Shown piece by piece: positions 19,862-50,020 of a stretch of 64,000 nt of DNA (the first letter of the stretch is position 1; each line of letters begins with the position of its first letter). The notes beneath the pieces are model-generated. The model made no database searches. It was given only the letters and a program-made list of their open reading frames with translations, and was not told where the DNA came from. This DNA comes from Chloroflexota bacterium (GTDB taxonomy: Bacteria > Chloroflexota > UBA11872): the NCBI GenBank assembly GCA_965208215.1, contig CBDBOH010000003.1, positions 1,761,259 to 1,825,258 of the forward strand, given 5' to 3'. Made by a program: the position numbers and the translations under genes.

Positions 19862-20165
19862 GTCGGCGTTCGCGAAAGCTCGGTCATGCGCATGGACGAC
19901 GGCTACCGCGCCTACCGCAACCGATGTCCTCTCCTGCAGGGTCCCGTGTGCACGGGTCCCGTCAGCGGCACCCGGGTCGCCAACGCCAATGCCGACAGGC
20001 TTCCAGTCTGGGACCTGAAAGGCCGCATGCTCATCTGCGCCTGGCACAGCATGAAGTTCGAGCTCGACACCGGACGCTGCCTCCGTGCCCGCGCCGAGCG
20101 CCTGCGCGCATATCCCGTCGAGTTGAGCGAGGATCAGGTGTTTGTGCTGATTGGCCGACGGCCAT
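19862..20165 (+). pseudogene. Degenerate Rieske ferredoxin remnant
   Basis: Colinear with 44315-44710, but CPHQQG has become CPLLQG (first His ligand lost) and the N-terminus is missing. Confidence 0.8.
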
Positions 20166-20269
20166 GTGCCGGACCTGGCGGACAACGCTCTCGGTCTACA
20201 AAAGAACCGCATCAGGGGCTACGATTGGCACCCTGTCCGTGCCAAGCCACGACTAGCAAGGGTCGCCCG

Positions 20270-22533: not shown

Positions 22534-22534
22534 A

Positions 22535-23491
22535 ATGCGCGAGATGATATTAAATCACGCAAGTCTTGATGCGCCAAATAAGAGAGCTGCACTTGGTTGG
22601 TTGAAAGGCATGGCTGCTGGCATGTCCGCACTTTTGTGTGAGAAAGTAGTCTCAAGCCACCTTCGAATGCAAGAGTCTCAAGACGAGATACACTGCCTAC
22701 CTAACTGGACGCTGGCGGAAGCTTATCGAGAACTTCGGCACGAAGGGGCAAGGGACGAGTATCTGTTTCTGGTGAGACTGAGCTCCAAAGTCCCACTCTT
22801 GAGCGATGTTAGTGAGAAGGTTATTAGCCGTTTTCGTGGTTGTGAGGACAGAACTCTACCCGCAGGGACAGGAGATCCACTTGTCTTGTGCGCCATAACT
22901 GATGGAGTGGCGGTAGGGTTTCCGTCAGATTCGACATGGGTTCGCGATGAATTGACTGTCACATTTGATGAGCTGCTCTACGATGGTGAGATTGAGACGG
23001 CAGTAGAGTCCATTGATAATCTGACTAGAGAGTGTCATGCTTGCTCAATCTGCGCAAGACACCGTCAGAATGTACGGCACAAAATAGGCAGTCCAACAGA
23101 TTTGTGGCAGAGCAGGGAGTCTGCCTTTCCCAACCTGCTATTCTCGTCCGACGTGGAGACTCAATTGAATAGTTTGCAGCTGTCGCTACTACAGATTGTT
23201 GTTAAGAGACTGATTGGTTTGGACGAGTCTGTCGGTGAATGGCGGAGGCAGCGGACTGCTATGCCGCGGTGGCGTTCAAAGATAACGTCTGAGAGCAGGT
23301 CGGTGGTGGTAGATAATTCGCTTCGTTCAGCTCGTCGATTTCGGTCAATTGGAGGTAACTTTGAGCTTTTTATGTGGCACGCAAGATATGGAAGCGCAGG
23401 CAGAATTCACTTTCGTGTGGATGGAAGTAGATTTGAGATAGAGATCGGCTATATTGGCAACAAGCTACCGACGGCCAAGTTTCGAACCTGA
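22535..23491 (+). CDS. Hypothetical effector with a putative C-terminal RelE-like domain; Menshen NsnC-like
   Basis: Third gene of a tight AT-richer operon; C-terminal TSES...FMWHARYGSAGRIHF...IEIGYIGNKLPT. Confidence 0.7.
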   Translation: MREMILNHASLDAPNKRAALGWLKGMAAGMSALLCEKVVSSHLRMQESQDEIHCLPNWTLAEAYRELRHEGARDEYLFLVRLSSKVPLLSDVSEKVISRFRGCEDRTLPAGTGDPLVLCAITDGVAVGFPSDSTWVRDELTVTFDELLYDGEIETAVESIDNLTRECHACSICARHRQNVRHKIGSPTDLWQSRESAFPNLLFSSDVETQLNSLQLSLLQIVVKRLIGLDESVGEWRRQRTAMPRWRSKITSESRSVVVDNSLRSARRFRSIGGNFELFMWHARYGSAGRIHFRVDGSRFEIEIGYIGNKLPTAKFRT

Positions 23492-37098: not shown

Positions 37099-37368
37099 AT
37101 GAAGGAATACACTGCGACCACCACCCAGCGCAACCAGGTCACCATCCCGGCCGCGGTTCGACGACTGCTGGGCATCAAACCCAGGGACAAGGTGGCCTTC
37201 ACCATCGACGACACGGGCACGGTTCGGCTGGCCGCCGCTCAATTCACCCTGGAGTCCGCCTACGGCTCCGTCCGGCCAACCGCGCAGCCAGAGGACTTTG
37301 AGCAGTTGTCCCGAGACGCCAAGGACGAAAAGGCCATGGCCACGGCACGCGAATTGCATGGGGAATGA
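37099..37368 (+). CDS. AbrB/MazE/SpoVT-family antitoxin
   Basis: TQRNQVTIPAAVRRLLGIKPRDKVAF; ATGA overlap with vapC. Confidence 0.9.
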   Translation: MKEYTATTTQRNQVTIPAAVRRLLGIKPRDKVAFTIDDTGTVRLAAAQFTLESAYGSVRPTAQPEDFEQLSRDAKDEKAMATARELHGE

Positions 37369-37778
37369 AGTTCCTGGACACCAATGTCATCCTGAGATTC
37401 CTCACCCGCGACGACGAGGAGAAGGCCGCGGCATGCTTCCGGCTCTTTCAGCGGGCGCAGCGCGGCGAAGAGGAGATCCTGACCTGCGAAGCGGTCGTCT
37501 GCGAAGTCGTGTATGTCTTGTCGTCGCGGCGTGCGGGCTATGGCCTCAGCCGCGAGGCCATCCGCGGTCGCCTGGCGCCGATCCTCACGCTTCGAGGACT
37601 CCGGCTTGCCCAGAAGCGTGTCTACCTGCGGGCGCTGGACATCTATGCGGCGTCGCCGTTCCTTGACTTCGAGGACGCCCTGGCGGCGGCTCACATGGAA
37701 CGGCACGGTATTTCGGAGATTGTGAGCTACGACTGTTGCTTTGACCGGGTGCCTGGCCTGCAGCGGGTCGAGCCGTGA
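37365..37778 (+). CDS. vapC: VapC/PIN toxin
   Basis: FLDTNVILRFL, VVCEVVYVL, DFEDAL, SYD. Confidence 0.9.
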   Translation: MKFLDTNVILRFLTRDDEEKAAACFRLFQRAQRGEEEILTCEAVVCEVVYVLSSRRAGYGLSREAIRGRLAPILTLRGLRLAQKRVYLRALDIYAASPFLDFEDALAAAHMERHGISEIVSYDCCFDRVPGLQRVEP

Positions 37779-37902: not shown

Positions 37903-38685
37903 ATGATCGGCGCGATCATTGGCGACATCGTGGGGTCGGTGTACGAGTGGCGGCGGATCAAGACCAAGTCGTTCGAGTTTTTCGTCGACCAGTGCGAGTG
38001 CACGGACGATTCGATCTGCACGGCCGCCGTGGCCGACATCCTGATGCACGACCGTCCGCCCGCCCAGACGCTTCAGCGGTGGTGCCGGGAGCACCCGCGC
38101 GGCGACTACGGGGGCAGGTTTGCCGAGTGGATCTGGATGGATCCGCCGCGTCCGTACGACAGTTTTGGCAATGGCGCGGCCATGCGGGTTTCGCCGGCGG
38201 CTTACCTGAACCGCGACGGCGACTTGTCGATTGCGCTGGAGGCGTCAGACCTGGTGACCGCCGTCACCCACAACCACCTGGAGGGAATCAAGGGCGCCCG
38301 CGCCACCGTGCACGCGATCTGGCTGGCCTTCCAGGGCGAGCCGGCCGCTGCCATTCGCTCGGCAATCACCGATACCTACGACTACGACCTGTCCCGCAGC
38401 GTCGACGACATCCGCCCCGGCTATCGCTTCAACGAGATCTGCCAGACGACAGTGCCGGAAGCCATTACCTGCGCCCTGGAGTCCGAGAGCTTCGAGGACG
38501 CCATTCGCAATGCCGTCTCGCTGGGCGGCGATTCCGACACCCTGGCGGCCATCGCGGGTCCGATTGCCGAGGCGTTGCACGGAATTCCCGCCGACATCCA
38601 GACCGAGGCCGAATGCCGGTACATCCCAGAGGACATCCTGACCATAGTCCGTGAGCTGTACGGCATAGCCAAACGCCATTCCTAA
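37903..38685 (+). CDS. ADP-ribosylglycohydrolase (DraG/ARH family)
   Basis: GAIIGDIVGSVYE, TDDS, SFGNGAAMRVSP, THNH, GGDSDTLAAIAG. Confidence 0.92.
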   Translation: MIGAIIGDIVGSVYEWRRIKTKSFEFFVDQCECTDDSICTAAVADILMHDRPPAQTLQRWCREHPRGDYGGRFAEWIWMDPPRPYDSFGNGAAMRVSPAAYLNRDGDLSIALEASDLVTAVTHNHLEGIKGARATVHAIWLAFQGEPAAAIRSAITDTYDYDLSRSVDDIRPGYRFNEICQTTVPEAITCALESESFEDAIRNAVSLGGDSDTLAAIAGPIAEALHGIPADIQTEAECRYIPEDILTIVRELYGIAKRHS

Positions 38686-38784
38686 CGTCACTGTTAAGAC
38701 TCTAAGGTCTCTTATCTATTCAAACTTACTTGCCACATTGGTAATACGTGTATTAGGTATCTAGATTCGACAGATCCAAACTGA

Positions 38785-40371
38785 CTACGGATGACGTCCA
38801 ACCCAACCGACAATAGTTTTATTCAAATTTCTGTCTAGGCAGAAGTATATGCGAACCAGACGATTGGGTGACGTACTGTCATTCGGTTTTAGATGATCTT
38901 CAAACTGGCGCTTCATTGCTGAGCCGTCATCCCACGTTCTCTTCCTCATCTCCGCTGGCGAGTTTCGAATTGTATCACTCTCCGGTGAATAAGTGACATT
39001 TCGCTCTTGGAGCCACTGTCGCATTGACATCCCGAGCGAGCCATTTCCTCGAAGAAGTGCGGTCAATGTGTCAAGTTCGTCAAGATAACGCGCAATTTTC
39101 TTCGGCGGCCCAGCGTCCGAGTCCAAATCTTCGATGCCTCTTAGTACGTCGTCTCCAAAGGTCAAGTGCTTACAAGTGTCCATTGCACCATAAACAACCT
39201 CCTCAACGGTTAGATCATCTTCGTCAACTTCCTCCACTAAGTCAGGAGTGCTTGACTCGCTTCCCTCTTGCTGTTGCCACCTGATCGTGATCAGCAGTTG
39301 GCGATTCTGGTCTTTAAGTCTATCTATTTCATCGTTCAATTCCTTACTTTGATCTTGGATGTGATCATGTAACTTCTCGATCATTTCTTCGCGTTCCTCC
39401 AATTCTGTCCGGAGGGAATCATTTTGTCGTTCATAGTCTTGAGCCAACTTCATAAAGCCATCAGCGTCTCTGGCTTGCCTGCGCTGATCAACAAAATACT
39501 GTTCTCTAATTCCGGCGATAAGTTTATGCGATGTTTGGAATGCCGATTGCTCGAAAACTATGCGGCGAATCTCATTCCGTATGCGAGTGGCTGCTTCGGC
39601 TGAGCTAACGCCGCCGCGATGTAGGCCATAGTAGGTCCAGAAGCGGTGAGTAAAGGGATGATTAATGGTGTCGCGGAAAGGCCAATAGAGTCGAATAGCA
39701 CCCGCGTAGCAAGACCAGACGCTTCCTTTTGATTGCGAGAGCACCCAGGAAGCATCGCGGTCGATCTCGACCACGTTTGCGAGACCTTCTAGATCATAGG
39801 CCAAGTCTCTTGAAAGAGTAGGGTGTAGAGCAGAACCATAACGGTGGGAGATCACGACTATCGGCAATCCTCGGCTGACACTCCAGATTGCGTCGATAAG
39901 ATCGCGACCATCGTCGCGCCCGGCACAAAGGACGTGCTTCGATAATGCGTGGCTTGCACCTGATTGCCAGGTTCTTGATTGAACGATGTTCCGGACAGCT
40001 CGAGGGCATCTCACCTCGAAAGAGACTGGCGCAAGTGCGGAGGCTGACGTCACCGTGCCAAGTCGACAAGAAAGGACGAGTTGGCTAGAGCTGCAGGCTA
40101 AGTCTATATGCGTCTCAAATGCGCCGTCTTTGATAGGTTCAGTTAGCACAAATGATTCTAGAGTTCCGTCCGCAGTCTGGAGTTGCTCTCTAGTTAAGTG
40201 TGCGACTCGGCCATCTGGAAAGGCTACGTCTCGACGTCCGAGGCTCGTGTCCTGTGCGCCTTTCCAGTTAAGCCAATCTTCCACCATTCTGACACTGGCG
40301 GCCAATTCCGTTGAAGCTGTTCCATCGTCCTGAACAGAGCTACCAAGCGAGTATGAACCGACGATCCGCAT
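38785..40371 (-). CDS. Hypothetical 528-aa protein with a coiled coil and a putative C-terminal RelE-like domain
   Basis: AT-richer, AGGAG RBS. LPIVVIS...SCYAGAIRLYWP; coiled coil from LAQDYERQ to DQNRQLL; C-terminal SPES...FEDHLK...RIYF...IVGWVGRHP. Confidence 0.8.
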   Translation of the reverse strand: MRIVGSYSLGSSVQDDGTASTELAASVRMVEDWLNWKGAQDTSLGRRDVAFPDGRVAHLTREQLQTADGTLESFVLTEPIKDGAFETHIDLACSSSQLVLSCRLGTVTSASALAPVSFEVRCPRAVRNIVQSRTWQSGASHALSKHVLCAGRDDGRDLIDAIWSVSRGLPIVVISHRYGSALHPTLSRDLAYDLEGLANVVEIDRDASWVLSQSKGSVWSCYAGAIRLYWPFRDTINHPFTHRFWTYYGLHRGGVSSAEAATRIRNEIRRIVFEQSAFQTSHKLIAGIREQYFVDQRRQARDADGFMKLAQDYERQNDSLRTELEEREEMIEKLHDHIQDQSKELNDEIDRLKDQNRQLLITIRWQQQEGSESSTPDLVEEVDEDDLTVEEVVYGAMDTCKHLTFGDDVLRGIEDLDSDAGPPKKIARYLDELDTLTALLRGNGSLGMSMRQWLQERNVTYSPESDTIRNSPAEMRKRTWDDGSAMKRQFEDHLKPNDSTSPNRLVRIYFCLDRNLNKTIVGWVGRHP

Positions 40372-40394
40372 TTAGGCTCCTCTTTTCGCAGGCG

Positions 40395-40620
40395 TTACCG
40401 TTGCTTATTGGCGTCCGATTGCCCTACGGCTGGCCAAGTGTGACCGTAAACTTTGATCTCTTCGAGCAGGCATCCAAGCAGGTCGGCATCCTGCTGGGCG
40501 TAAGGGACGAGGCGCGCGATTGGTTCGCCTTGAATGGTGGTAGTCAGACCATTGGTCTCAAGTTGGGTCCGACAGTGTCATCCACTGGGACTTGAGCCGC
40601 GCAGCCGCAATCGTGCGCAT
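40395..40620 (-). pseudogene. Frameshifted Phd/YefM antitoxin (second copy)
   Basis: Not in the ORF track. GGAG-ATG gives MRTIAAARLKSQWMTLSD, then a +1 shift gives QLETNGLTTTIQGEPIARLVPYAQQDADLLGCLLEEIKVYG. Colinear with 41091-41315. Confidence 0.8.
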
Positions 40621-40782
40621 GCAGCTCCTGCCTCGAGGGAAACGTGTCAATTCACACTATATGACTCGTGGAAAAAGCTGTCCATGTAGCATGTGCTAAT
40701 GGCCCTCACTGCATTGTTTCGCCTGCCGGAGCGTGTAGCCGTTGTACTTGCGTCGTGTGTCCCTGGAGGCGGTGGTGTTGAC

Positions 40783-40948
40783 CGCTTCAGCGCGTCAAGC
40801 ACCTCATGCGCAGCGTTGTGCCCCTGCGCGCCCGTGACCTCGCCGCCGGGGTGGGTGCCGTCGCCGCAGAGGTAGAGGTTCTTGATCGGCGTCCGGTAGT
40901 CCGACCACCCGGGCAGTGGCCGGCGCGACATGATCTGCTGCGGCACCA
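40783..40948 (-). pseudogene. Duplicated 3' end of the FAD oxidoreductase at 41477-43024
   Basis: PQQIMSRRPLPGWSDYRTPIKNLYLCGDGTHPGGEVTGAQGHNAAH is nearly identical to the C-terminus of the full gene. Confidence 0.9.
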
Positions 40949-40949
40949 C

Positions 40950-41066
40950 TTCGCCGAAGCCCTCCACGGTATCCTGACGGACATTGGAGCCCAAGCCGAA
41001 AACCGCTACGTGCCGAACGACATCCTCGAAGCGGTCCGGAAGATGTATTGCGAGGCGAGCGGCTAA
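40950..41066 (+). pseudogene. Duplicated 3' end of the ADP-ribosylglycohydrolase
   Basis: FAEALHGILTDIGAQAENRYVPNDILEAVRKMY aligns with IAEALHGIPADIQTEAECRYIPEDILTIVRELY at 38563-38685. Confidence 0.85.
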
Positions 41067-41090
41067 CGCCGAGGATAAGCGCGTGGGATA

Positions 41091-41315
41091 TCAAGACTCG
41101 GCGTCGGCGTTCCACCGGACTCCGGTTGTCAAGATGTCACCCGTAATCCTGATCTTGTCCCGCAGGCTCCCGATTAGTTCTGCATCCCCCTCGGCATAGG
41201 GCACGACCCGCGCGACGGGCTTGCCGCCCTTGGTAATGATCAGGCCATCGGAGTCGAGCTCGTCCAGCAACACGAGGCAATGAGCCTTGAACCACGCGGC
41301 CTCAATCGTCCTCAT
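41091..41315 (-). CDS. Phd/YefM-family antitoxin, orphan; only a 'LDTHALI'-like vapC stub follows at about 41065-41095
   Basis: MRTIEAAWFKAHCLVLLDEL...IITKGGKPVARVVP; downstream gtcttgatatcccacgcgcttatc reads as a frameshifted LDTHALI. Confidence 0.85.
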   Translation of the reverse strand: MRTIEAAWFKAHCLVLLDELDSDGLIITKGGKPVARVVPYAEGDAELIGSLRDKIRITGDILTTGVRWNADAES

Positions 41316-41476
41316 GCCGTTCCTCAGTCAACCGGAATTCAGCCGGATCGCACATTGTGTCCGGCGACAAGACCAGCGATCGACGCCGCTCCAATGCCCG
41401 GCCTCGCAGACCTTCGCAGCTTCCGCGCCGCTCGAATCCCGCGCTGGGCAGAGGACGGCAACTGGCCGACTCGCGC

Positions 41477-43024
41477 CTACCGCCCCAGCTCATCCAGCAC
41501 CACATGCGCCGCGTTGTGGCCTGGGGCGCCGGTTACCTCGCCGCCGGGGTGGGTGCCGGCGCCGCAGAGGTAGAGGTTCTTGATGGGGGTGCGGTAGTCG
41601 GACCAGCCGGGGAGGGGGCGGCGGGACATCATTTGTTGGGGAATCATGTCCACGTGGCGGATGTTGCCGTCGGTCAAGCCGATGCGGTCCTCGATGTCCT
41701 CGGGCGTGAGCATGGTCCAGTCGATGATGGCGTCCCTGAAGTTGGGGGCGTAGCGGCAGAACTCGTCGATCAGCTTTTCCCCGAACTCCTGCCGCTTCTC
41801 CGACCACGTGCCTTCCTTGAGGTGCGCCGGCACGAAGAATACCCACATGGACAGCACGTGCTGTCCGTCGGGCGCCACGGATGGGTCGTAGACGGTCGGA
41901 ATCTGCACCTGGATGACCGGTGTTTCGGGAAGCCGGCCGTTCGTGGCGTCGAACCAGCTCGACTCGCAGTAGTCCGTTGAGGGGGCGAGATTGATCATGG
42001 ACAGGTGTTTGGGGTCGTAGTCGTCGCCCAGGTGGCGCGAGAAGTCGGGCAACTCGCGCAGCGAGCAGAGGAACTTGACCGAGGCGGACTGCGTCTTCAG
42101 CGCTTCGACTTCGTCCACGACGTCCTGGTCCACGTCGTCCCCGTCCAGCAGCTTGGTGAAGGTGCGCTTGGGGTCGGCGTTCGAGAGGACCAGGTCGGCC
42201 TCGATTACCTCGCCGTTCGCCAGCTCCACGCCGGTGGCCTGGCCGTACTCGGTCAGGATGCGGGACACCTCCGCACCCGTGCGGATCGACACCCCCACCG
42301 ACTCGGCGGAGCGGGCCATGGACTGGGTGATGGACCCCATTCCGCCGCGCACGATGCCGTAGTTCTCCGTGTCCTCGCGGTAGGCGCTGAAGCGGTAGAG
42401 CGCCATGATGTAGGCGCTGCCGGGCGCGCTGAGGTTGCCCATGTCGATCGCGCCGATGCTGGCCATCGCCCGCATCTCGTCGGAGACGAATGTGCGGTCG
42501 ATCAGGTCACGAACCGGAACCGTGAGAAGCGTTTCCAGCAGCTCTTCTTCCTCCTCGTCCCTGAATCGCTCGGTGAGCTCGGCCAGGGAAGGCGGCGGCT
42601 GCAGGTAGTAGTCGCTCAGAATCCGCACAGCGCGGTGCCAGAAGTTGGCCCAGTCCAGCCAGGCCTCGGCGTCCTCGGGCGAGAACTGGCGAATCTCTTC
42701 CGCCGTCTTCTCGTCGTCGTGCCACAGCCTGACGGCGCGCCCGTCGGGAAACGGGTGCAGGCGGCCCGGGTCCAGGGGGTAGACGTGGAACCCGTGGTTC
42801 CGCAGCTCCAGCTCGTCGATCACCTTCTGCTGCAGGATGTGGCACACGTAGGAGCAGGTGGAGATGTGAAAGCCGGGAAACCACTCCTCGGTCACGGCCG
42901 CGCCGCCCACCACGTCGCGGCGCTCCAGCACCTGCACGTCCAGCCCGGCCCGGCCGAGATACCCGGCAGCCACCAGCCCGTTGTGCCCGCCGCCGACGAT
43001 TACGACTTTCTTGTTCCCGGCCAT
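41477..43024 (-). CDS. NAD(P)/FAD-dependent oxidoreductase, phytoene dehydrogenase-like
   Basis: VIVGGGHNGLVAAGYL, LERRDVVGGAAVTEE, GGMGSI, NLYLCGAGTHPGGEVTGAPGHNAA. Start at ATG 43024. Confidence 0.92.
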   Translation of the reverse strand: MAGNKKVVIVGGGHNGLVAAGYLGRAGLDVQVLERRDVVGGAAVTEEWFPGFHISTCSYVCHILQQKVIDELELRNHGFHVYPLDPGRLHPFPDGRAVRLWHDDEKTAEEIRQFSPEDAEAWLDWANFWHRAVRILSDYYLQPPPSLAELTERFRDEEEEELLETLLTVPVRDLIDRTFVSDEMRAMASIGAIDMGNLSAPGSAYIMALYRFSAYREDTENYGIVRGGMGSITQSMARSAESVGVSIRTGAEVSRILTEYGQATGVELANGEVIEADLVLSNADPKRTFTKLLDGDDVDQDVVDEVEALKTQSASVKFLCSLRELPDFSRHLGDDYDPKHLSMINLAPSTDYCESSWFDATNGRLPETPVIQVQIPTVYDPSVAPDGQHVLSMWVFFVPAHLKEGTWSEKRQEFGEKLIDEFCRYAPNFRDAIIDWTMLTPEDIEDRIGLTDGNIRHVDMIPQQMMSRRPLPGWSDYRTPIKNLYLCGAGTHPGGEVTGAPGHNAAHVVLDELGR

Positions 43025-43199
43025 GGCTTGCTCCTTCTCCCGCTGCCGCAAAAGCTCGCCGTCGTACGCTCTAAGTTCCATCCCGAACGGCCGCTGCATG
43101 CCTGCGCCCCTCCTACGTGACGCAGCGCGCGGTTACGCGCCACCTCACCGGGGTCACCGGGCTAGAATCTCAGGCCGTTCGGAGGACGGGTCTGAGCTT

Positions 43200-44315
43200 A
43201 TGACACGGGACTCCAGGAAGCCGCTCGGTCTGGACGATGTGTTCATCGTCGACTGCGATGTGCATGCCAACGAACCGCCCGAGGCGCTGGCGCCGTACAT
43301 CGACATGCCCTGGCGCCGCTCGCTGGAGCTGCTGGGCCGCGGCCCGCAGCGCTACCTGGACATTCCCGGCTACGCGCCGATTCTCAACCTCGATCCCCCG
43401 TTTCCCGACCGTGGGTTGGGCAACCGCACCGTCACCACGGCCCGGCAGATGCGTGACGACCTGGACGAGCTATCCATCGACGTCGGCATCCTCTTCCCCG
43501 ACAACCTGCTCAAGATCGCCGTATTCCCGCACGTCGACTACGCGGCGGCGCTTGGGCGTGCCTATAACGCCTGGCTGGCCGACGCGTGGGTGAGCCGCGA
43601 ATCCGGCCTGTACGGCGCCGTGCTTGCCGTTCCCCAGGACCCGAAGGACGCCGCGGAGCAGATCCGCACCTACGGCGCCGACGACCGGTTCGTGGCCGTC
43701 TACCTGCCGGTGGCCGGCCTGCGTCCGCTCTGGGGCGACCGCATGTACGACCCCATCTACGAAGCGGCCGAGGAGATGGGCCTGCCGGTCATGCTCCACA
43801 GCGTCGGCATCATCCACCCGCACTTCCCGTTCAACCTGGAGCACGTGGAATCGCGCATCGTGCGTCACCCCATCAACCACGAGTTCGCGCTGATGGCCAA
43901 CCTGTTCACCATGCTCACGTCCGGCGTGCCGGTCAGGTACCCGGACCTGGAGATCGTCTTCACCGAGGGCGGCGTGTCCTGGGTGCCCTTCTGCATGTGG
44001 CGCATGGACAAGGAATACGCCGAGATTCCCACCGGCGCCCCCTTCCTGGAGCGCCCGCCGAGCGAATACATCAAGGAGATGTACTTCTGCACCCAGCCGA
44101 TCGAGGAGCCGGAACGCTCCCGCGATCTGCTGACCATGATCGACCTGTTCGATGGGCGCGATAAGGTCATATTTGCTTCCGACTGGCCGCACCACGACTT
44201 CGACCATCCGCGCACGGTGCTGAACATGCCGTTCGACGCCGAGCTCAAGCGCAACGTCATGGGCGAGACCGCCCGCCGCCTCTTCAAGCTGCCGGTCCCA
44301 GTTCCCGTCGCCTGA
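43200..44315 (+). CDS. Amidohydrolase-fold protein with a DxDxH motif; candidate dinuclear oxygenase
   Basis: VDCDVH, MLHSV, FTEGG, FASDWPHHDFD; TGATG coupling to the Rieske gene. Confidence 0.85.
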   Translation: MTRDSRKPLGLDDVFIVDCDVHANEPPEALAPYIDMPWRRSLELLGRGPQRYLDIPGYAPILNLDPPFPDRGLGNRTVTTARQMRDDLDELSIDVGILFPDNLLKIAVFPHVDYAAALGRAYNAWLADAWVSRESGLYGAVLAVPQDPKDAAEQIRTYGADDRFVAVYLPVAGLRPLWGDRMYDPIYEAAEEMGLPVMLHSVGIIHPHFPFNLEHVESRIVRHPINHEFALMANLFTMLTSGVPVRYPDLEIVFTEGGVSWVPFCMWRMDKEYAEIPTGAPFLERPPSEYIKEMYFCTQPIEEPERSRDLLTMIDLFDGRDKVIFASDWPHHDFDHPRTVLNMPFDAELKRNVMGETARRLFKLPVPVPVA

Positions 44316-44710
44316 TGTCCCGCATCCGGGTGGGGCCGGCGGACGAGATCCAGCCCGGCCAGCCGGCCTTCGTGAAGCACGGCGACATCGAGATCGCGGT
44401 GTTTCGCGTGGACGACGGCTTTCGCGCTTACCGCAACCGCTGCCCCCACCAGCAGGGACCGGTCTGCACGGGTCCCGTCAGCGGCACCCTGGTCGCCACC
44501 GCCGATACCGACTGGCGCCTGGCCTGGGTGCTCGAAGGCCGGGTGCTGATCTGCCCCTGGCACAGCATGGAGTTCGACCTCGACACCGGCCGGCGCATCC
44601 GCGCCCGCGCGGAACGGTTGCGCGCGTTTCCCGTCGACGTCGATAACGGCGACGTCTTCATCCAGGTCGGCCCGCGTTCGGTCCCAGCGGCTACTGGTCC
44701 GTCCGCCTGA
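44315..44710 (+). CDS. Rieske [2Fe-2S] ferredoxin
   Basis: NRCPHQQG...ICPWHSMEFDLDTG. Confidence 0.92.
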   Translation: MSRIRVGPADEIQPGQPAFVKHGDIEIAVFRVDDGFRAYRNRCPHQQGPVCTGPVSGTLVATADTDWRLAWVLEGRVLICPWHSMEFDLDTGRRIRARAERLRAFPVDVDNGDVFIQVGPRSVPAATGPSA

Positions 44711-47231
44711 CGACGACCTCAATCTCCACCGGCTCGTTTTCGAACCAGGCCACCAACTCGACAAGCACCGACGCCCGCACGACATAGCGCCCCGGCTCAT
44801 CGGGCGCCCGCAGCTGCCCGGTAAACGCATAGCCGCGTCCCGGCGGGATGTCGTTGTACAGGTGTCCCAGCAGGGGAACGCGGCCTTCATACGTCGGTTG
44901 CTCGGTTTCGCTCCCGTCCTCGTTGAACTTCCACCAGCGCCAGCCCAGGCGGATGTTGGCTTCGTCGGTCCAGCTCTTGCGTCCGGTATTCGTCGCGTCC
45001 ACGTGCAGCGGGAGCAACTCGCCGGGCGCCGCCGCGAAGCTGGCCGGGGTTCGCAAGCGAAGGCTGGCCAGCATCCCCTCGGCGCTGCCTTCGAACGCCG
45101 CCGGCTCTACCTGGGCCACGAGGACCGCGCGTTCGAACAGCAACTCGCCGTCCGCTGTCGCGCGCACCACGTAGTTCCCGAGCGCTACCGGTGTGAACCC
45201 GTGCATCGTTGTCGCGTACACCTGGCCCGGTCTCAGAAACGGCGGTGGCAGCACGTCGGTCGCGTACTCGAGCTCCACCGATCCGTCATCTCGAATCCAC
45301 TGGACGTTCACGCGGCGAACCCTGGAGTCCCCGGGCGGAACCCACGCTGTCGCGGCCGGATTGCCCGTCACCAGGGTGCCGACGAACCCGACCTCCGGCT
45401 CGGCCACGTCCACCAGAAACGTGATGTCCGGATCGGCCCAGCGATTGGCGGTTGGCTCGGTGGGATCAGCCAGGGTGATGAGCAGGTGCCGGTCGGCACG
45501 GTTGACTTCGGCGACCCACGGGCCGTTGGCGAAGACCTCCCACGCCGCGCGGTCCCGGTCGCTGAGATGGCGCAGGTCCACCGCTACGGTTCGGATTCCG
45601 AAGGCCTGCAAGCCTTTCGCCAGGCCGCCAAGTTCGCCAGACATCAGCTTGCGTGTCGAGTCGTGAAAAAACCAGTACTGCTGCCAGATGTGTCCCGAGT
45701 ACCCATTGACGAGGGGGCCCACGCCGCTGTCAGTCGCCATCCACATCCGCCAGATCTCGTCGGCCTGTGAGACGGGAACCAGCAGCACGGGGCCGTCCGG
45801 CGTTTCCCTCAGGGCGGCTTTGAGCGTGGCATCGGTTGGAATCGGATAGGTCACAAGCGGCCGCGGCAGCGCTTCCAGCAGGACAAGCCCCGTCGCCAGC
45901 AGTCCGATAAGCGGCGCGGCCAGCCAGCGCTGCGTCAATCGGCGCGTGATCGCGTATACGCCGAGGCCCGCCAAAACGGCGAGCGCAAAGTGCGCCATTA
46001 GCGAGAACCGCGCCACGACGCGGATCGCGCGGAATACCGGAACGTGCTCGAACAGCAGCAGATAGGGCAGCTGGTGCTCGCTTACGACCTCATGACGTTT
46101 CCAGTGGGTGCCCAACGAGAACAACACCGCCAGCGCGGCAAGCGCCAGCAGCAGGACGCTCACCGCTCGCAGCTCCCGGCGCCTGCCCGTCCAGCCCAGC
46201 AACCCGGCCCCCGCGCCCAGGGCCGCGAGAGCGGGCGGCACGAAGCCGGGAAAAATCCGCCGCTCGCCACTTGGGACCGGGAATCGATCCATCAGCGCGT
46301 CGTACCACTGCAGCCGTCCGTTCGGCGACAGGTAATCGCGAAGCTGCGGCGCAAAGTTCTGAACTTCGGTGATGTCGCGGTTCGCGCGCCAGGCGTCGGC
46401 AAAGCTCAGATACCCATACACGATCGGCACGAACGGCAGGCTGGCCACGATACCCGCGCCAACCATCGCGACCCCCAGCTTCACGTCGCGGCGGACCGCC
46501 ACCCGGTACACGGCCGGGGGGATGACGAATGCCGCGTACACCATCGCGGCGATCACCCCCAGGTGTACCGCCGTGGCGAACTGGGTCCAGACCATCAGCG
46601 TCGCCAGCCCGAAGTCCAGCCAGCCGCCGCCTCGCCAAAGGCGGATCCCGAACAGGAGCACCAGCGGCAGGTACCACGCGCCCAGGAACTGGAAGTGATT
46701 GGCATACGCCAGCTGCAACGGTCCAAAGGCATACACCGCCCCGGCCAGCAGCGCCCCGGGACGTGAGCCCGTCAGAACCAGCACCATCGCGTACATCGCG
46801 CCTGCGTTCAGGGCGAAGGCCGCGATGTGCGTGATGCTGTAGGCCAGCACCGGGTTCTGAACTACCCAGGCAATCGGACCGTAGATGGGCAGGAACCCAA
46901 GCAACAGATCCGACCCGAACAGCGCCCCGCCGGACCCGTAGTAGAAGTTGCCTACGAAAAAGTCGCCGGGTCTGGCAAACAGCGCCGTCCGGGTCCACTC
47001 CAGAATGCTGAGGATGAACAACTGATCGCCGCTGGGCTTGTAGGCGATGTGCGTGCCGGCGACCAGCAACAGCGGGTGTGTGAATACCAGCGCGGCGGCC
47101 ACATACAGCAGCGCAGCCGCCGCGTGCCACCAACGCCGATCCGCGGCCAGCCACGTGGCGAGCGTGCTCAAGCGGCCGTTCGCATGGCTGGCCAAGTGAA
47201 CCTGTGACGTTGTTGCCGCGGCCCTCGTCAC
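44691..47231 (-). CDS. Polytopic membrane protein, YfhO/GT-C-like, with C-terminal Ig-like domains
   Basis: About 12-13 TM segments in the N-terminal half (SGDQLF, VRVVARF, PLVNGYSG); soluble tail with ATNTG...W...IRLGWRWW...LRAPDEPGRY. Confidence 0.7.
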   Translation of the reverse strand: MTRAAATTSQVHLASHANGRLSTLATWLAADRRWWHAAAALLYVAAALVFTHPLLLVAGTHIAYKPSGDQLFILSILEWTRTALFARPGDFFVGNFYYGSGGALFGSDLLLGFLPIYGPIAWVVQNPVLAYSITHIAAFALNAGAMYAMVLVLTGSRPGALLAGAVYAFGPLQLAYANHFQFLGAWYLPLVLLFGIRLWRGGGWLDFGLATLMVWTQFATAVHLGVIAAMVYAAFVIPPAVYRVAVRRDVKLGVAMVGAGIVASLPFVPIVYGYLSFADAWRANRDITEVQNFAPQLRDYLSPNGRLQWYDALMDRFPVPSGERRIFPGFVPPALAALGAGAGLLGWTGRRRELRAVSVLLLALAALAVLFSLGTHWKRHEVVSEHQLPYLLLFEHVPVFRAIRVVARFSLMAHFALAVLAGLGVYAITRRLTQRWLAAPLIGLLATGLVLLEALPRPLVTYPIPTDATLKAALRETPDGPVLLVPVSQADEIWRMWMATDSGVGPLVNGYSGHIWQQYWFFHDSTRKLMSGELGGLAKGLQAFGIRTVAVDLRHLSDRDRAAWEVFANGPWVAEVNRADRHLLITLADPTEPTANRWADPDITFLVDVAEPEVGFVGTLVTGNPAATAWVPPGDSRVRRVNVQWIRDDGSVELEYATDVLPPPFLRPGQVYATTMHGFTPVALGNYVVRATADGELLFERAVLVAQVEPAAFEGSAEGMLASLRLRTPASFAAAPGELLPLHVDATNTGRKSWTDEANIRLGWRWWKFNEDGSETEQPTYEGRVPLLGHLYNDIPPGRGYAFTGQLRAPDEPGRYVVRASVLVELVAWFENEPVEIEVVVRRTDQ

Positions 47232-47418: not shown

Positions 47419-48567
47419 ATGCGCCGTATGAAGTTCGTCTCCGCCATCTCGCTCGAGACCGACCCCGGTCGCATCGCCCAGGACATCCACGACCAGCTGG
47501 CCGCTGACAGTCCATTCGACCTGGCGATTGCTTTTGTGCGCCCGCAGACCGATCCCGCCGGCGCCGACATCCTGGCCGGCCTGCACGCCCAGCTTGCTCC
47601 AGAGCGATTCATTGGCTGCACCGCCGGCGGCGTCGTCGGAGCCAGTCGTGAAATCGAGGATGATGCGGCCACCGCCGTCCTGGCTGCTCGCCTTCCCGGC
47701 GTTCGAGTCGATCCCCTCCCGGATCTGGACGACGCCGAGATCAGTCTTGAAACGCAGGACCTGCAGGCCTGCGTCGTCTTGGTCGATCCCTTTTCGACCG
47801 CGACCGAAGCCTTGCTGCGCCGGCTCGAACAGCTGGCCCCGGGGATTCCCGTGATCGGCGGCGTGGCTAGCTGGGCGTCGGCGCCGGGACGCAATCGGCT
47901 GGCGCAGGATGGTGAGATCGCGAATTCCGGCCTCGTCGGCGTGACGCTCCGCGGCAACGTTCAGGTCAGCACCATCGTGTCCCAGGGTTGCCGTCCGGTG
48001 GGCGACTGGTTCACCGTTACCGGCAGCCGCAGCAACCTGATCCAGGAGCTTGACGGCAAGCCGCCGCTCGAGGTCCTTCAGGAGGTCTTCGCCGAAGCCA
48101 GTCCCGCCGACCAGAAGCTCATGCGCTCCGGGATTCTCATCGGGCGCGGCGTCGCCAAGCAGCCCGACAATCTCGGCCACGGCTCATTCCTCATCCGCGT
48201 GGTTCTGGGCGCCGACCGTGAGTCCGGCGCCATTAGCGTGGCCGACCGCGTGCGCGAGGGAGAGTACGTGCAGTTCCATGTGCGCGACGCCCAGAGCGCC
48301 CGCGACGATCTTGAGATGCTGCTGACCCCGCAGGTCTTCGAGGAAACCGCTGCCGGCGCCTTGCTATTCACTTGCAACGGCCGCGGTGAACGCTTCTTCG
48401 GTGAGCGCGATGCCGACATCGCGATCATCGGCAACGCCCTGGGTGAGCAGGTGCCGGTGGCCGGCTTCTTCTGCGGCGGCGAAATCGGCCCCATCGGCTC
48501 AGCCAACTTCGTCCACGGCTACACCGCCAGCCTGGCTGTATTCCGCCCGGGTTCCGGCCTGGCATAG
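47419..48567 (+). CDS. FIST-domain (NosP-like) protein
   Basis: FIGCTAGGVVG, VIGGVAS, VSQGCRPVG, VQFHVRD, LLFTCNGRG, AGFFCGGEIGP. Confidence 0.88.
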   Translation: MRRMKFVSAISLETDPGRIAQDIHDQLAADSPFDLAIAFVRPQTDPAGADILAGLHAQLAPERFIGCTAGGVVGASREIEDDAATAVLAARLPGVRVDPLPDLDDAEISLETQDLQACVVLVDPFSTATEALLRRLEQLAPGIPVIGGVASWASAPGRNRLAQDGEIANSGLVGVTLRGNVQVSTIVSQGCRPVGDWFTVTGSRSNLIQELDGKPPLEVLQEVFAEASPADQKLMRSGILIGRGVAKQPDNLGHGSFLIRVVLGADRESGAISVADRVREGEYVQFHVRDAQSARDDLEMLLTPQVFEETAAGALLFTCNGRGERFFGERDADIAIIGNALGEQVPVAGFFCGGEIGPIGSANFVHGYTASLAVFRPGSGLA

Positions 48568-48697: not shown

Positions 48698-50020
48698 CTG
48701 ACACAGGCGCCGCCTGAAACTCCGGATACCGGTGCACGCTCCCAGGTCACTGCCGGGCGCCGCGCCTGGGAAGCGCTTCTCGCCGCCACCGGCTCGGTAC
48801 TTCGCCCCCTGGTCATTCACTCGCTGCTGGCCTGGGAGCGTCTTGAGTCGGGCGTCAGCTACAACCCCACGTCCAGGGAAGTCCAGCGTGATCCCTACCC
48901 GACCTACGAACGGCTGCGGCGCACGGACCCGGTACACCGGATGCGGCTGGTCGACGCGTGGGCGATCACCCAGCACCAGGACATTGACGCGATGCTCCGC
49001 GACAGCCGGCGGTTTTCGAACGGCGGGCGGGAATACGGATACGTCGACTACGTATCGATGCTCGACATGGACCCGCCGGACCACACGCGCTTGCGGTCGC
49101 TGGTGGTCAAGGCGTTTACGCCGCGGGCCGTTGCCGAGCTTGCGCCCAGGATCCGGCAGACCTGCGACGAACTCCTCGATGACGTCGAGGGAACGACCCG
49201 ATTCGACCTGATCGGAGCCCTGGCGTTTCCGTTGCCGGTGATTGTCATTGCCGAAATGCTGGGGGTTCCGCCCACGGACCGGGATCGGTTCAAGGACTGG
49301 TCGCAGGACGCAGCGCTCTCGGTCGAGCCGGCGCTCGATCACGGACAGGTGCGGCGAGTCCAGCGCGCCTTCGGGAGTCTGCGCGAGTACCTCGGTGCGC
49401 TGATCGAGCGCTATCAGCGGGATCCGCAGGACAACATGATTAGCGCGCTGGTGGCCGTCGAGGAGGCCGGCGACCGGCTGACGCGTGAAGAACTGCTGAT
49501 GACCTTGATGTTGCTGCTGGTGGCAGGACACGAGACCACGCGCAACCTGATTGGCAACGGCATGCTGGCGCTGCTCAGGAATCCCGACCAGTTGCAGCGG
49601 CTGCGCGACCATCCCGAGCTGATGGAGCCCGCCATTCACGAGTTGCTGCGCTACGACGCACCCGTGCAACTCGACAGCCGAGTCGTGCAAGAAGACCTCG
49701 AGATCGGCGGCAAGCGGATTCGCAAGGGCCAGCGAGTCATTGGCCTGATCGGCGGTGCCAATCGAGATCCGGAGGCGTTTGCCAGGCCGAATACGCTGGA
49801 CATTGGCCGTGATGACCGCAGTCATCTGTCGTTCGGCCGGGGCATTCACTATTGCCTGGGATCATCGCTGGCGGTGTTGGAGGGGCGAATCGCCCTGGCC
49901 GCGCTCTTGCGGCGATTCTCCTCCATTCAGCTGGCGGCGGAGCCCGAACACATCGATGTTGTCGTCCTGCGCGGCGTCCGCGAACTGTGGATTGACGTCG
50001 AGCGTGCGACCGGCGCATAG
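48698..50020 (+). CDS. Cytochrome P450
   Basis: DPPDHTRLR, AGHETT, ELLRYD, HLSFGRGIHYCLG. The start is uncertain; CTG 48698 follows a GGAG. Confidence 0.92.
   Translation: MTQAPPETPDTGARSQVTAGRRAWEALLAATGSVLRPLVIHSLLAWERLESGVSYNPTSREVQRDPYPTYERLRRTDPVHRMRLVDAWAITQHQDIDAMLRDSRRFSNGGREYGYVDYVSMLDMDPPDHTRLRSLVVKAFTPRAVAELAPRIRQTCDELLDDVEGTTRFDLIGALAFPLPVIVIAEMLGVPPTDRDRFKDWSQDAALSVEPALDHGQVRRVQRAFGSLREYLGALIERYQRDPQDNMISALVAVEEAGDRLTREELLMTLMLLLVAGHETTRNLIGNGMLALLRNPDQLQRLRDHPELMEPAIHELLRYDAPVQLDSRVVQEDLEIGGKRIRKGQRVIGLIGGANRDPEAFARPNTLDIGRDDRSHLSFGRGIHYCLGSSLAVLEGRIALAALLRRFSSIQLAAEPEHIDVVVLRGVRELWIDVERATGA

What the first reader, a model, noticed from the sequence alone, without database searches (positions are those of the whole stretch)
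41477..44710. DxDxH amidohydrolase-fold protein plus Rieske ferredoxin: candidate dinuclear C-H hydroxylase
The protein has D-C-D-V-H, H, E(GG) and D-W-P-H-H-D instead of the hydrolytic HxH set, and is translationally coupled (TGATG) to a Rieske ferredoxin. A hydrolase needs no electron donor. This pairing matches, as I recall, amidohydrolase-related dinuclear oxygenases such as PtmU3 and AibH1H2 with its Rieske partner AibG. A divergent FAD oxidoreductase could act in the same pathway or supply electrons. The substrate is unknown, and only one subunit gene is present.
Basis: partly seen in the sequence, partly recalled or inferred. Interest (0 to 1): 0.65.

Follow-up and report, generated by a model that had tools for sequence, protein, structure and literature searches.

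The report
Amidohydrolase-fold dinuclear oxygenase with Rieske partner
A sponge-symbiont Chloroflexota gene annotated as an "amidohydrolase" is almost certainly an oxygen-activating two-metal oxygenase fed by the small Rieske ferredoxin encoded next to it; this enzyme class was described in 2023-2026, so it is a new, uncharacterised member and not a new kind of system.

Summary
Window 43200-44315 (+) encodes a 371-aa PF04909 protein. It has D18-C-D20-V-H22, H200, E256 and D328-W-P-H331-H-D333. Its stop codon overlaps (TGATG) the start of a 131-aa Rieske ferredoxin gene (44315-44710).

These are the published defining motifs of amidohydrolase-related dinuclear oxygenases (AROs): an N-terminal D-x-H and a C-terminal D-x-P-H-x-D/E. 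The closest solved structures by sequence and by predicted fold are all AROs (D3EI84, SfbO, AibH2, PtmU3). Decarboxylases and hydrolases come far behind. A small Rieske gene follows the oxygenase gene in 70 of 82 informative related loci.

A single subunit is normal, because SfbO is a homotetramer. The divergent FAD gene belongs to the CrtI/CrtO desaturase family. It is found only in relatives with at least 91% identical oxygenase, so it is neither a conserved partner nor a ferredoxin reductase. No reductase gene lies in the window.

Substrate and metal are unknown. The protein belongs to a subclade with the signature DWPHHDFDHP (γ1 Val, γ2 Phe, γ4 His). This combination fits neither published rule for Mn or Fe2 preference. 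Distant orthologues sit among genes that suggest sugar-acid catabolism.

Verdict: a new member of a known kind, of moderate-to-low interest.

The parts
43200..44315 (+). ARO gene: a 371-aa PF04909 TIM-barrel protein. Predicted dinuclear-site ligands are D20 and H22 (D-x-H on strand 1), H200, E256 (bridging), D328 (bridging) and H331, with D333 in the second sphere. γ1 = V21, γ2 = F99, γ3 = A326, γ4 = H332, γ5 = F334.
   Evidence: start codon and RBS; Pfam, E 1.3e-35; alignments to 8SM7, 8SM6, AibH2; invariant columns; model and Foldseek; ligand and γ columns.
44315..44710 (+). Rieske-type [2Fe-2S] ferredoxin, 131 aa, translationally coupled to the ARO gene (TGATG). It has C43-x-H45 ... C80-P-W82-H83 with a conserved 34-35-residue spacer. 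It is the inferred electron donor to the ARO.
   Evidence: closest solved relatives are the BphF, CarAc and T4moC ferredoxins; invariant C43, H45, C51, W67, W71, C80, W82, H83 in 71 orthologues; adjacency in 70/82 loci.
43025..43199 (.). A 175-nt divergent intergenic region between the FAD gene and the ARO gene. It is the presumed promoter region, and a GGAGGA ribosome-binding site lies 12 nt before the ARO ATG.
   Evidence: No sigma-70-like consensus was found, so the promoter is inferred only.
41477..43024 (-). CrtI/CrtO-family FAD-dependent oxidoreductase, 515 aa. It lies inside the finding's coordinates but is probably not part of the oxygenase system.
   Evidence: CrtO profile 318 bits and crtI_fam 150 bits, both below cut-off; best PDB hit is CrtI 4DGK; present only beside AROs of at least 91% identity, plus one 39% relative 6 kb away in L085.

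Best explanation
The 371-aa protein is an amidohydrolase-related dinuclear oxygenase (ARO).

Cofactor (inferred from homology): a TIM barrel would hold two redox-active metal ions (Fe/Fe, Mn/Fe or Mn/Mn). Site 1 would be bound by D20, H22 and H200. Site 2 would be bound by H331. E256 and D328 would bridge the two metals, and D333 would hydrogen-bond a metal-bound water.

Catalytic cycle (inferred from SfbO, AibH1H2 and PtmU3):
1. The co-translated Rieske ferredoxin docks over the C-terminal loop. F334 (γ5) of the oxygenase would stack on W82 of the ferredoxin.
2. The ferredoxin delivers single electrons.
3. The reduced cofactor binds O2.
4. A high-valent intermediate oxidises a C-H bond of a small-molecule substrate, most likely by hydroxylation.

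Other points:
- The enzyme is probably homomeric, like SfbO.
- The NAD(P)H-ferredoxin reductase is encoded elsewhere in the genome.
- The substrate is unknown. It is tentatively a small anionic metabolite of sugar-acid type in a catabolic route, which neighbouring dehydrogenases would then oxidise.

Shown here: gene structure, motifs, homology, predicted fold and conserved gene pairing. Inferred: metal content, electron transfer, O2 chemistry and substrate.
For: - Defining motifs: D-x-H on strand 1 and D-x-P-H-x-D after more than 300 residues are present and invariant.
- Ligand columns: they are identical to SfbO, D3EI84 and AibH2 in pairwise and multiple alignments.
- PDB sequence ranking: four Rieske-associated AROs and AibH1/H2 score E 1e-57 to 1e-36, PtmU3 1e-14, and decarboxylases 4e-14 or weaker.
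- Fold: the model (pLDDT 89.2, pTM 0.91) hits SfbO, D3EI84, AibH1H2, B6JH23, W7L2Y2 and PtmU3 as its top 21 Foldseek matches.
- Gene pairing: a small Rieske gene lies directly downstream on the same strand in 70 of 82 related loci from Chloroflexota, Rubrobacter, Thermomicrobiales and others. In many loci the inferred gap is no more than about 8 nt or the genes overlap.
- Docking residues: γ5 is an invariant Phe, and the Rieske protein has an invariant Trp inside C-P-W-H. This matches the docking pair proposed for SfbO/SfbR.
- Internal contrast: the window's other PF04909 gene (12177-13145) has neither motif and no Rieske neighbour.
- Possible transcription: a metatranscriptome contig from a close relative spans the ARO/Rieske junction. 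This is weak, because DNA carry-over is possible.
- Precedent: O2-dependent C-H oxidation by relatives is shown in PMC10811679, PMC10401708 and PMC13154177.
Against: - There are no biochemical data for this protein or for any member of its DWPHHDFDHP subclade.
- Model coordinates could not be exported. Ligand superposition therefore rests on alignment columns and global fold match, not on measured metal-site geometry.
- No reductase gene is present in the 64-kb window.
- The determinants of metal choice are mixed. γ1 Val is Mn-type, while γ2 Phe and γ4 His are Fe2-type under the published definition. The cofactor therefore cannot be predicted.
- AROs also catalyse oxidative decarboxylation and dealkylation, so 'hydroxylase' is only the most likely outcome.
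- Neighbourhood clues to the substrate are weak and differ between lineages.
Confidence: 0.8

Rival explanations
1. It is an ARO with a Rieske donor, but the reaction is not a simple hydroxylation. It could be an oxidative decarboxylation (as in BarH/LynB7/DolJ/E0U9F9), an N- or O-dealkylation (as SfbO does on its surrogate substrates), or a desaturation.
For: Characterised AROs already cover these outcomes. The substrate is unknown. A nearly invariant Arg (R222) would suit a carboxylate-bearing substrate.
Against: The known oxidative decarboxylases lie in the high-potential cluster, which largely lacks Rieske partners. This protein is far closer to the Rieske-associated hydroxylase-type members. 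Dealkylation by SfbO is itself initiated by C-H hydroxylation.
Confidence: 0.2
2. It is an ordinary PF04909 metal-dependent hydrolase or decarboxylase, as public annotations say ('amidohydrolase'). On this reading the Rieske gene is an unrelated neighbour, perhaps serving the nearby P450 or another enzyme.
For: The Pfam family is Amidohydro_2 and database names say amidohydrolase. A P450 gene lies 4 kb downstream.
Against: - Characterised hydrolases and decarboxylases of this fold lack both D-x-H and D-x-P-H-x-D/E.
- They are much more distant in sequence and fold.
- Rieske adjacency, mostly with tiny or overlapping gaps, holds in 70/82 loci, nearly all without a P450.
- The P450 is separated by an oppositely oriented gene and a FIST gene.
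Confidence: 0.04
3. The divergent CrtI-like FAD protein is the third component. It would be either the NAD(P)H:Rieske-ferredoxin reductase or an obligatory pathway partner of the oxygenase.
For: It is adjacent and divergently transcribed, sharing a 175-nt intergenic region. AibH1H2 uses a flavoprotein, AibF. A 39%-identical relative lies 6 kb from the ARO in one distant locus, L085.
Against: - It belongs to the phytoene desaturase/ketolase (CrtI/CrtO) family of substrate-oxidising flavoenzymes, not to ferredoxin-NAD(P) reductases.
- It is found beside the ARO only in 12 loci whose ARO is at least 91% identical. It is absent from all loci at 52-80% identity except L085.
- In two close relatives it is displaced by about 2.4 kb.
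- In the 80%-identical orthologue an MFS transporter gene occupies its place, and the window's stretch 19.4-43.2 kb looks like a lineage-specific variable region.
Confidence: 0.08
4. It is a degenerate, non-catalytic ARO-like subunit, as AibH1 is. It would have a structural metal site and need a catalytic partner encoded elsewhere.
For: AibH1 is about as similar to it (E 1.1e-36) as AibH2 is. Some nearest cluster representatives (P0122, P0126) have lost ligands.
Against: All six ligands plus the second-sphere Asp are intact and invariant. AibH1 has P-H-K-H in place of P-H-x-D. No second ARO-like gene is adjacent. The homomeric relatives SfbO and D3EI84 are closer.
Confidence: 0.03

Closest known systems
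D3EI84 (PDB 8SM7, from 'Geobacillus' sp. Y412MC10), a Rieske-associated low-potential ARO
   Same: It is the best sequence match in the PDB (E 3.7e-57, about 34% identity over the full length). It has the same fold, the same six ligands plus the second-sphere Asp, γ1 Val and γ5 Phe, a homomeric single gene and a Rieske ferredoxin neighbour.
   Different: D3EI84 has γ2 Thr and γ4 Trp, the canonical Mn-type signature. The window protein has Phe and His. The native substrate of D3EI84 is also unknown.
SfbO (PDB 8SM6/8SMA/9BUA, Litorilinea aerophila, Chloroflexota), a cambialistic Mn/Fe or Fe2 sulfonate β-monooxygenase with the Rieske partner SfbR
   Same: It comes from the same phylum and has the same D-C-D-V-H start and the same ligand set. 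It has a Rieske partner docking at γ5, is a homotetramer, and is the top Foldseek hit.
   Different: Identity is 31%. SfbO has γ2 Thr, γ4 Trp and γ5 Trp. Its sulfate-binding Asn67 aligns to Asp54 here. One of its two Arg (R235) aligns to the conserved R222 in the HMMER alignment but not in the MAFFT alignment, so the pockets are probably different.
AibH1H2/AibG/AibF, the 2-aminoisobutyrate hydroxylase of Rhodococcus wratislaviensis (PDB 6M1W, 8FUL-8FUO)
   Same: AibH2 carries the same D-x-H, His, Glu and D-x-P-H-x-D site. It works with a Rieske ferredoxin (AibG) and hydroxylates an unactivated C-H bond.
   Different: AibH1H2 is an (αβ)2 heterotetramer with a degenerate AibH1 subunit, and its operon encodes a flavoprotein reductase. 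Here there is one subunit gene and no reductase gene. Identity is about 28%.
PtmU3 (PDB 6OMP-6OMR), the diiron hydroxylase of platensimycin/platencin biosynthesis
   Same: It has the same fold and the same dinuclear-site architecture.
   Different: It is much more distant (E 1.2e-14, 21% identity). It is of the high-potential Fe2 type, with a hydrophilic γ1 and Glu in the last motif position, and this class typically has no Rieske partner.

Membership tests
Amidohydrolase-related dinuclear oxygenases (ARO; Liu et al. 2024, 2026) | PF04909 (amidohydrolase_2) TIM-barrel fold | tested here: met
   Pfam PF04909, E 1.3e-35. The AF2 model has pLDDT 89 and alternating strands and helices. Foldseek TM-scores to solved AROs are 0.77-0.86.
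Amidohydrolase-related dinuclear oxygenases (ARO) | N-terminal D-x-H motif on the first β-strand (two ligands of metal site 1) | tested here: met
   D20-V21-H22 lies within predicted strand 17-23. It is invariant in 59 homologues and aligns to the D-x-H of SfbO, D3EI84 and AibH2.
Amidohydrolase-related dinuclear oxygenases (ARO) | C-terminal D-x-P-H-x-D/E motif preceded by about 200 or more residues | tested here: met
   D328-W-P-H331-H-D333, preceded by 327 residues. It is invariant. The definition is from PMC13154177.
Amidohydrolase-related dinuclear oxygenases (ARO) | Remaining site-1 ligands: a His after strand 5 and a bridging Glu after strand 6 | tested here: met
   H200 and E256 are invariant. 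They align to the His and Glu columns of SfbO, D3EI84 and AibH2.
Amidohydrolase-related dinuclear oxygenases (ARO) | Binds a redox-active dinuclear Fe2, Mn/Fe or Mn2 cofactor | not testable with these tools
   This needs ICP, EPR or anomalous diffraction on purified protein.
Amidohydrolase-related dinuclear oxygenases (ARO) | O2- and reductant-dependent substrate oxidation | not testable with these tools
   This needs an enzyme assay, and the native substrate is unknown.
Rieske-associated (low-potential type) ARO subgroup | A small Rieske ferredoxin gene in the same transcription unit | tested here: met
   TGATG overlap. The pairing is present in 70/82 related loci.
Rieske-associated (low-potential type) ARO subgroup | Hydrophobic or aromatic γ5 residue for ferredoxin docking | tested here: met
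   F334 is invariant. The role of γ5 is described in PMC13154177.
Predicted Mn-dependent ARO (Table 1 of PMC13154177) | γ1 hydrophobic | tested here: met
   V21.
Predicted Mn-dependent ARO (Table 1 of PMC13154177) | γ2 hydrophilic | tested here: not met
   F99 ends strand 2: IDVGILF aligns without a gap to SfbO IDIAILT and to D3EI84 ...AVLT. It is invariant in the clade.
Predicted Mn-dependent ARO (Table 1 of PMC13154177) | γ4 aromatic (Phe, Trp or Tyr) | tested here: not met
   H332 is invariant in the clade.
Predicted diiron-dependent ARO (Table 1 of PMC13154177) | γ1 hydrophilic (with γ2 hydrophobic and γ4 non-aromatic) | tested here: not met
   γ1 is Val. γ2 Phe and γ4 His would fit, so the protein matches neither class completely.
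AibH1H2-type three-component hydroxylase | Second (AibH1-like) subunit gene and a flavoprotein reductase gene in the operon | tested here: not met
   No second ARO-like gene is adjacent. The only other PF04909 gene is 30 kb away and lacks the motifs. No ferredoxin-reductase-type gene was found in 64 kb.
CrtI/CrtO phytoene-desaturase family (for the neighbouring FAD gene) | Score above the curated cut-off of a named NCBIfam equivalog or subfamily | tested here: not met
   CrtO scores 318 bits against a cut-off of 1000. crtI_fam scores 150 bits against 238. It is a superfamily relative only, and the best PDB hit is CrtI 4DGK, E 2.9e-21.

The most novel reading that the evidence does not exclude
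The protein represents a distinct, widespread ARO subclade found in Chloroflexota, Rubrobacter and Thermomicrobiales. Its signature is D-W-P-H-H-D-F-D-H-P.

The subclade combines a Mn-type γ1 (Val) with an Fe2-type γ2 (Phe) and a His at γ4, while keeping a Rieske partner. It therefore breaks the published sequence rule for metal choice.

It may have an unusual cofactor potential or metallation, and it may act on a substrate class new to the family. That substrate is possibly a sugar-acid-like metabolite used by sponge symbionts.
Probability: 0.25. Interest if true: 0.5.

Novelty: new member of a known kind. Interest (0 to 1): 0.3.

Why it matters
- Annotation: thousands of genes like this one are still labelled 'amidohydrolase'. 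This gene should be re-annotated as a putative dinuclear oxygenase with a Rieske ferredoxin partner.
- Enzymology: the subclade is a natural test of the 2026 rule that γ1, γ2 and γ4 decide between Mn-containing and diiron cofactors, because it mixes the two signatures.
- Sponge-symbiont biology: it points to an O2-dependent C-H oxidation step in an unidentified catabolic route.
- Limits: it does not open a new class of system. The pairing with a Rieske gene is exactly how the family was discovered.

Tried and rejected
- Third component: I tested the CrtI-like FAD gene as a third component. I rejected it on family assignment and on lack of conservation.
- Reductase: I annotated essentially all long ORFs of the 64-kb window looking for a ferredoxin reductase and found none.
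- Substrate from neighbourhoods: clustering of neighbours in 88 loci gave only weak, lineage-dependent themes.
  - An SDR lies directly upstream in about 8 Rubrobacter or Thermomicrobiales loci.
  - GFO_IDH_MocA is divergent in mid-distance relatives.
  - GntR/FCD, sugar transporters, MR_MLE and ILVD_EDD appear elsewhere.
  - The first crude ORF caller also produced antisense artefact clusters, which I ignored.
- SfbO pocket residues: mapping of the SfbO sulfate-binding residues was only partly possible. HMMER and MAFFT disagree in the 201-230 loop, which is also the least confident part of the model.
- RNA and signals: the Rfam scan of the window found nothing. The promoter and terminator consensus scan was uninformative.
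- Expression: the only metatranscriptome hit is from a relative of about 94% identity, stored as contigs. It is weak evidence of expression.
- Geometry: model coordinates are not exposed to scripts, so I could not measure ligand geometry directly.
Full report
**What is there**

The finding's interval holds three genes.

- A divergent FAD gene on the minus strand, 41477..43024. The start is ATG at MAGNKKVVIVGGGHNGL. The longer ORF to 43099 is not supported by homologues, which align over 515 aa.
- A PF04909 gene at 43200..44315 on the plus strand. An ATG is preceded by GGAGGA, and the product is 371 aa.
- A Rieske gene at 44315..44710 whose ATG overlaps the preceding TGA (TGATG).

In an alignment of 59 homologues of 54-98% identity, every one of these residues is invariant.

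**What family it is**

A phmmer search of all PDB sequences ranks the hits as follows.

| PDB entry | Protein | E-value |
|---|---|---|
| 8SM7 | D3EI84 | 3.7e-57 |
| 8SM6 | SfbO | 3.7e-46 |
| 8SM9 | W7L2Y2 | 1.2e-39 |
| 6M1W chain B and 8FUL-8FUO | AibH2 | 7.5e-37 |
| 6M2I chain A | AibH1 | 1.1e-36 |
| 8SM8 | B6JH23 | 1.6e-36 |
| 6OMP | PtmU3 | 1.2e-14 |
| 4ICM and later hits | LigW, γ-resorcylate and ACMSD decarboxylases | 3.6e-14 and weaker |

The identities of the 8SM entries come from the supplement of PMC10811679.

An AlphaFold2 model built on the 59-sequence alignment is confident (mean pLDDT 89.2, pTM 0.91). Its 21 best Foldseek matches in the PDB are SfbO, D3EI84, AibH1H2, B6JH23, W7L2Y2 and PtmU3, with TM-scores of 0.75-0.86. 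The decarboxylases follow.

**The defining features, taken from the literature and then tested**

Liu et al. (JACS 2024, PMC10811679) found new AROs by looking for PF04909 genes beside small Rieske genes. They showed redox-active diiron sites in four of them, and O2-dependent C-H oxidation by SfbO with an Mn/Fe preference.

Liu et al. (JACS 2026, PMC13154177) define the superfamily by an N-terminal D-x-H on β-strand 1 and a C-terminal D-x-P-H-x-D/E. Neither motif is found in characterised hydrolases or decarboxylases of this fold. They count about 17,000 UniProt members, of which 3,307 were previously found by Rieske association.

The window protein has D20-V-H22 inside predicted strand 17-23, and D328-W-P-H-H-D333 after 327 residues. 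Pairwise HMMER alignments put D20, H22, H200, E256, D328, H331 and D333 opposite the same residues of SfbO, D3EI84 and AibH2. AibH1, the non-catalytic subunit, has P-H-K-H instead of P-H-x-D.

All sequence-testable membership criteria are therefore met. Metal content and activity cannot be tested in silico.

There is a useful internal control. The window's other PF04909 gene (12177-13145, minus strand) reads IDTQSH... and ...SDHPW..., has no ARO motif, and has no Rieske neighbour.

**The Rieske partner**

The 131-aa protein matches PF00355. Its nearest solved relatives are the soluble ferredoxins of biphenyl, carbazole and naphthalene dioxygenases and of toluene-4-monooxygenase.

I fetched 88 loci from public genomes and metagenomes that encode relatives of the oxygenase at 52-99% identity. 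Of these, 82 have enough downstream DNA to judge. In 70 of the 82, a small Rieske gene follows directly on the same strand, usually with an overlap or a gap of a few bases.

Eight of the twelve exceptions form one paralogous clade (61-63% identity; seven of them carry a weak Rieske match, and gene calls were available only for L003, which has a convergent 581-aa Rieske-domain protein).

Across 71 Rieske orthologues, C43, H45, C80, W82 and H83 are invariant. So are C51, W67 and W71. The spacer between the two cluster-binding loops is always 34-35 residues.

The oxygenase's γ5 residue (F334) is an invariant Phe. In SfbO the equivalent aromatic residue is proposed to stack on a Trp of the ferredoxin, and mutating it abolishes the EPR perturbation. 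The pairing is a conserved functional unit and not a chance adjacency.

**The FAD gene**

This gene is a CrtI/CrtO-family flavoprotein.

- NCBIfam CrtO scores E 9e-95 but only 318 bits against a cut-off of 1000.
- NCBIfam crtI_fam scores 150 bits against a cut-off of 238.
- The best PDB hit is CrtI 4DGK.

These are substrate-oxidising desaturases and ketolases, not ferredoxin reductases.

The gene sits next to the ARO only in the 12 loci whose ARO is at least 91% identical. In two of those it is displaced by about 2.4 kb. It is absent from all loci at 52-80% identity, apart from a 39% relative 6 kb away in L085.

The 80%-identical orthologue (L001) has this order: LUD/CCG, NmrA, GFO_IDH_MocA, a 187-aa gene, MFS, ARO, Rieske, FIST. 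In the window, the LUD/CCG and GFO genes lie at 16-19.4 kb. The 24 kb between them and the ARO hold defence genes, antiporters, a UvrD helicase, a two-component system, a toxin-antitoxin pair, an ADP-ribosylglycohydrolase and the FAD gene. That stretch is a lineage-specific variable region.

I conclude that the FAD gene is not a conserved partner. No reductase is encoded in the window.

**The single subunit**

SfbO crystallises as an α4 homotetramer, and the other Rieske-associated AROs are single-gene enzymes. The AibH1H2 heterotetramer is the special case.

**Which metals?**

The 2026 paper predicts the cofactor as follows.

| Predicted class | γ1 | γ2 | γ4 |
|---|---|---|---|
| Mn-dependent | hydrophobic | hydrophilic | Phe, Trp or Tyr |
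| Diiron-dependent | hydrophilic | hydrophobic | non-aromatic |
| Window protein | V21 (hydrophobic) | F99 (hydrophobic) | H332 (non-aromatic by the paper's definition) |

The paper's MSA numbering (γ3 #2386, γ4 #2392, γ5 #2394; γ2 #1407 next to pCore residue #1406) agrees with my assignments:

- γ1 = V21
- γ2 = F99, at the end of strand 2. IDVGILF aligns without gaps to SfbO IDIAILT.
- γ3 = A326
- γ4 = H332
- γ5 = F334

The protein therefore matches neither class. By overall similarity it sits with the low-potential, Rieske-associated proteins.

I also examined 116 full-length representatives of the nearest 50%-identity clusters, taken from an exhaustive search of 1.84 billion proteins. That search found 334 clusters at E ≤ 1e-30. 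Of the 116, 95 carry both motifs. Most of these show V/T/W, V/N/W or V/N/F at γ1/γ2/γ4. About seven clusters share the window's DWPHHDFDHP signature, with γ2 Phe, Tyr or Val and γ4 His.

This subclade signature is the only feature I found that goes beyond what is published. My guess is that the cofactor is Mn/Fe-capable or cambialistic, given the Val at γ1 and the Rieske partner, but I hold that with low confidence.

**Substrate**

The substrate is unknown. Neighbours differ by lineage.

- In about eight Rubrobacter or Thermomicrobiales loci, an SDR gene lies immediately upstream on the same strand.
- In mid-distance Chloroflexota, a GFO_IDH_MocA gene is divergent.
- Elsewhere there are GntR/FCD regulators, sugar-type ABC or MFS transporters, and MR_MLE or ILVD_EDD dehydratases.

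Together with a nearly invariant Arg (R222), this hints at a small anionic metabolite of sugar-acid type. It would be hydroxylated and then dehydrogenated. I rate this at about 0.2.

**Origin and expression**

The window comes from a sponge-associated Chloroflexota.

- The oxygenase is 99% identical at protein level to that of MAG SB0662_bin_61.
- The DNA is found in sponge metagenomes.
- A sponge metatranscriptome holds a 350-nt contig, 94% identical, that crosses the ARO stop and the Rieske start. This is weak evidence that the pair is transcribed together in a close relative.

**Verdict**

However, this is an uncharacterised member of a family that has been defined, structurally characterised and enumerated. 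It was identified by the very criterion used to discover that family. The only new angle is the mixed metal-determinant signature of its subclade.

Novelty: new member of a known kind. Interest: 0.3.

Noticed in passing
window 19886-23488 (+): A low-GC (52-54%) three-gene block matches the PADLOC defence system NsnA (E 2e-137), NsnB (8e-99) and NsnC (7e-56). By Pfam the first two are GmrSD_N and AAA_15/AAA_21+DUF3696. It is probably a horizontally acquired defence island.
   Followed up: partly
window 38665-41450: This is a window-specific ~2.8-kb low-GC insert between the ADP-ribosylglycohydrolase gene and the CrtI-like FAD gene. It is absent from relatives L005, L008, L010 and L013. It carries a 528-aa ORF (38785-40371, minus strand) that matches the PADLOC candidate HEC-07 (E 6.5e-42), with an NsnC-like C-terminus.
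   Followed up: partly
window 40444-40948 versus 41141-41646: There is a decayed direct repeat with about 698-nt spacing. An 83%-identical copy of the last ~165 nt of the FAD gene lies at 40781-40948, giving a C-terminal pseudogene fragment. A 66%-identical copy of its downstream spacer lies beside it. A short peptide at about 40998-41066 (+) resembles the C-terminus of the ADP-ribosylglycohydrolase. The pattern looks like a local duplication associated with the insertion.
   Followed up: partly
window 12177-13145 (-) and 13306-14100 (+): A second PF04909 gene (323 aa) lacks D-x-H and D-x-P-H-x-D/E and sits beside a cyclase-family (PF04199) gene. It is an ordinary hydrolase or decarboxylase-type member and serves as an internal contrast to the ARO.
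   Followed up: partly
window 37099-37368 and 37365-37778 (+): Two overlapping small ORFs look like a toxin-antitoxin pair: an AbrB/MazE-like antitoxin followed by a PIN-like toxin (VapBC type). This was judged by eye from the translations, and by the PIN/MazE pairs seen in related loci.
   Followed up: no
window 44691-47231 (-), 47419-48567 (+), 48836-50017 (+): Downstream of the Rieske gene lie an 846-aa protein with no Pfam or NCBIfam match (hydrophobic, apparently membrane, judged by eye from the translation), a FIST_N/FIST_C sensor-domain protein and a cytochrome P450. The 846-aa protein is present in some close relatives and missing in others. ARO-Rieske-FIST synteny extends to orthologues of 64-80% identity but not beyond.
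   Followed up: partly
loci L003, L028-L033 (related genomes): A paralogous ARO clade (61-63% identical, often in the same genomes as the orthologue) has no small Rieske gene. In L003, the only one with gene calls, a convergent 581-aa protein with a Rieske domain lies about 200 nt downstream, and six other loci of the clade show a matching weak Rieske hit about 1.6 kb downstream on the opposite strand. This may be a different way of supplying electrons.
   Followed up: no
proteins P0122 and P0126 (nearest 50%-identity cluster representatives): Some close relatives have lost metal ligands. P0122 has Ser in place of E256 and a DWPHDG motif. P0126 has DMEVY at the N-terminal motif and GSGWPHSN at the C-terminal one. 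These resemble the degenerate AibH1 subunit and suggest repeated evolution of non-catalytic paralogues.
   Followed up: no
window 44315-44710 (Rieske protein): The Rieske partners of this clade share invariant features. There is a third invariant Cys (C51, in C-P-H-Q-x-G-P-x-C), and two invariant Trp (W67, W71) lie inside a conserved 34-35-residue spacer between the cluster-binding loops. That spacer is about twice the length of the one in dioxygenase ferredoxins. The function of these features is unknown.
   Followed up: partly
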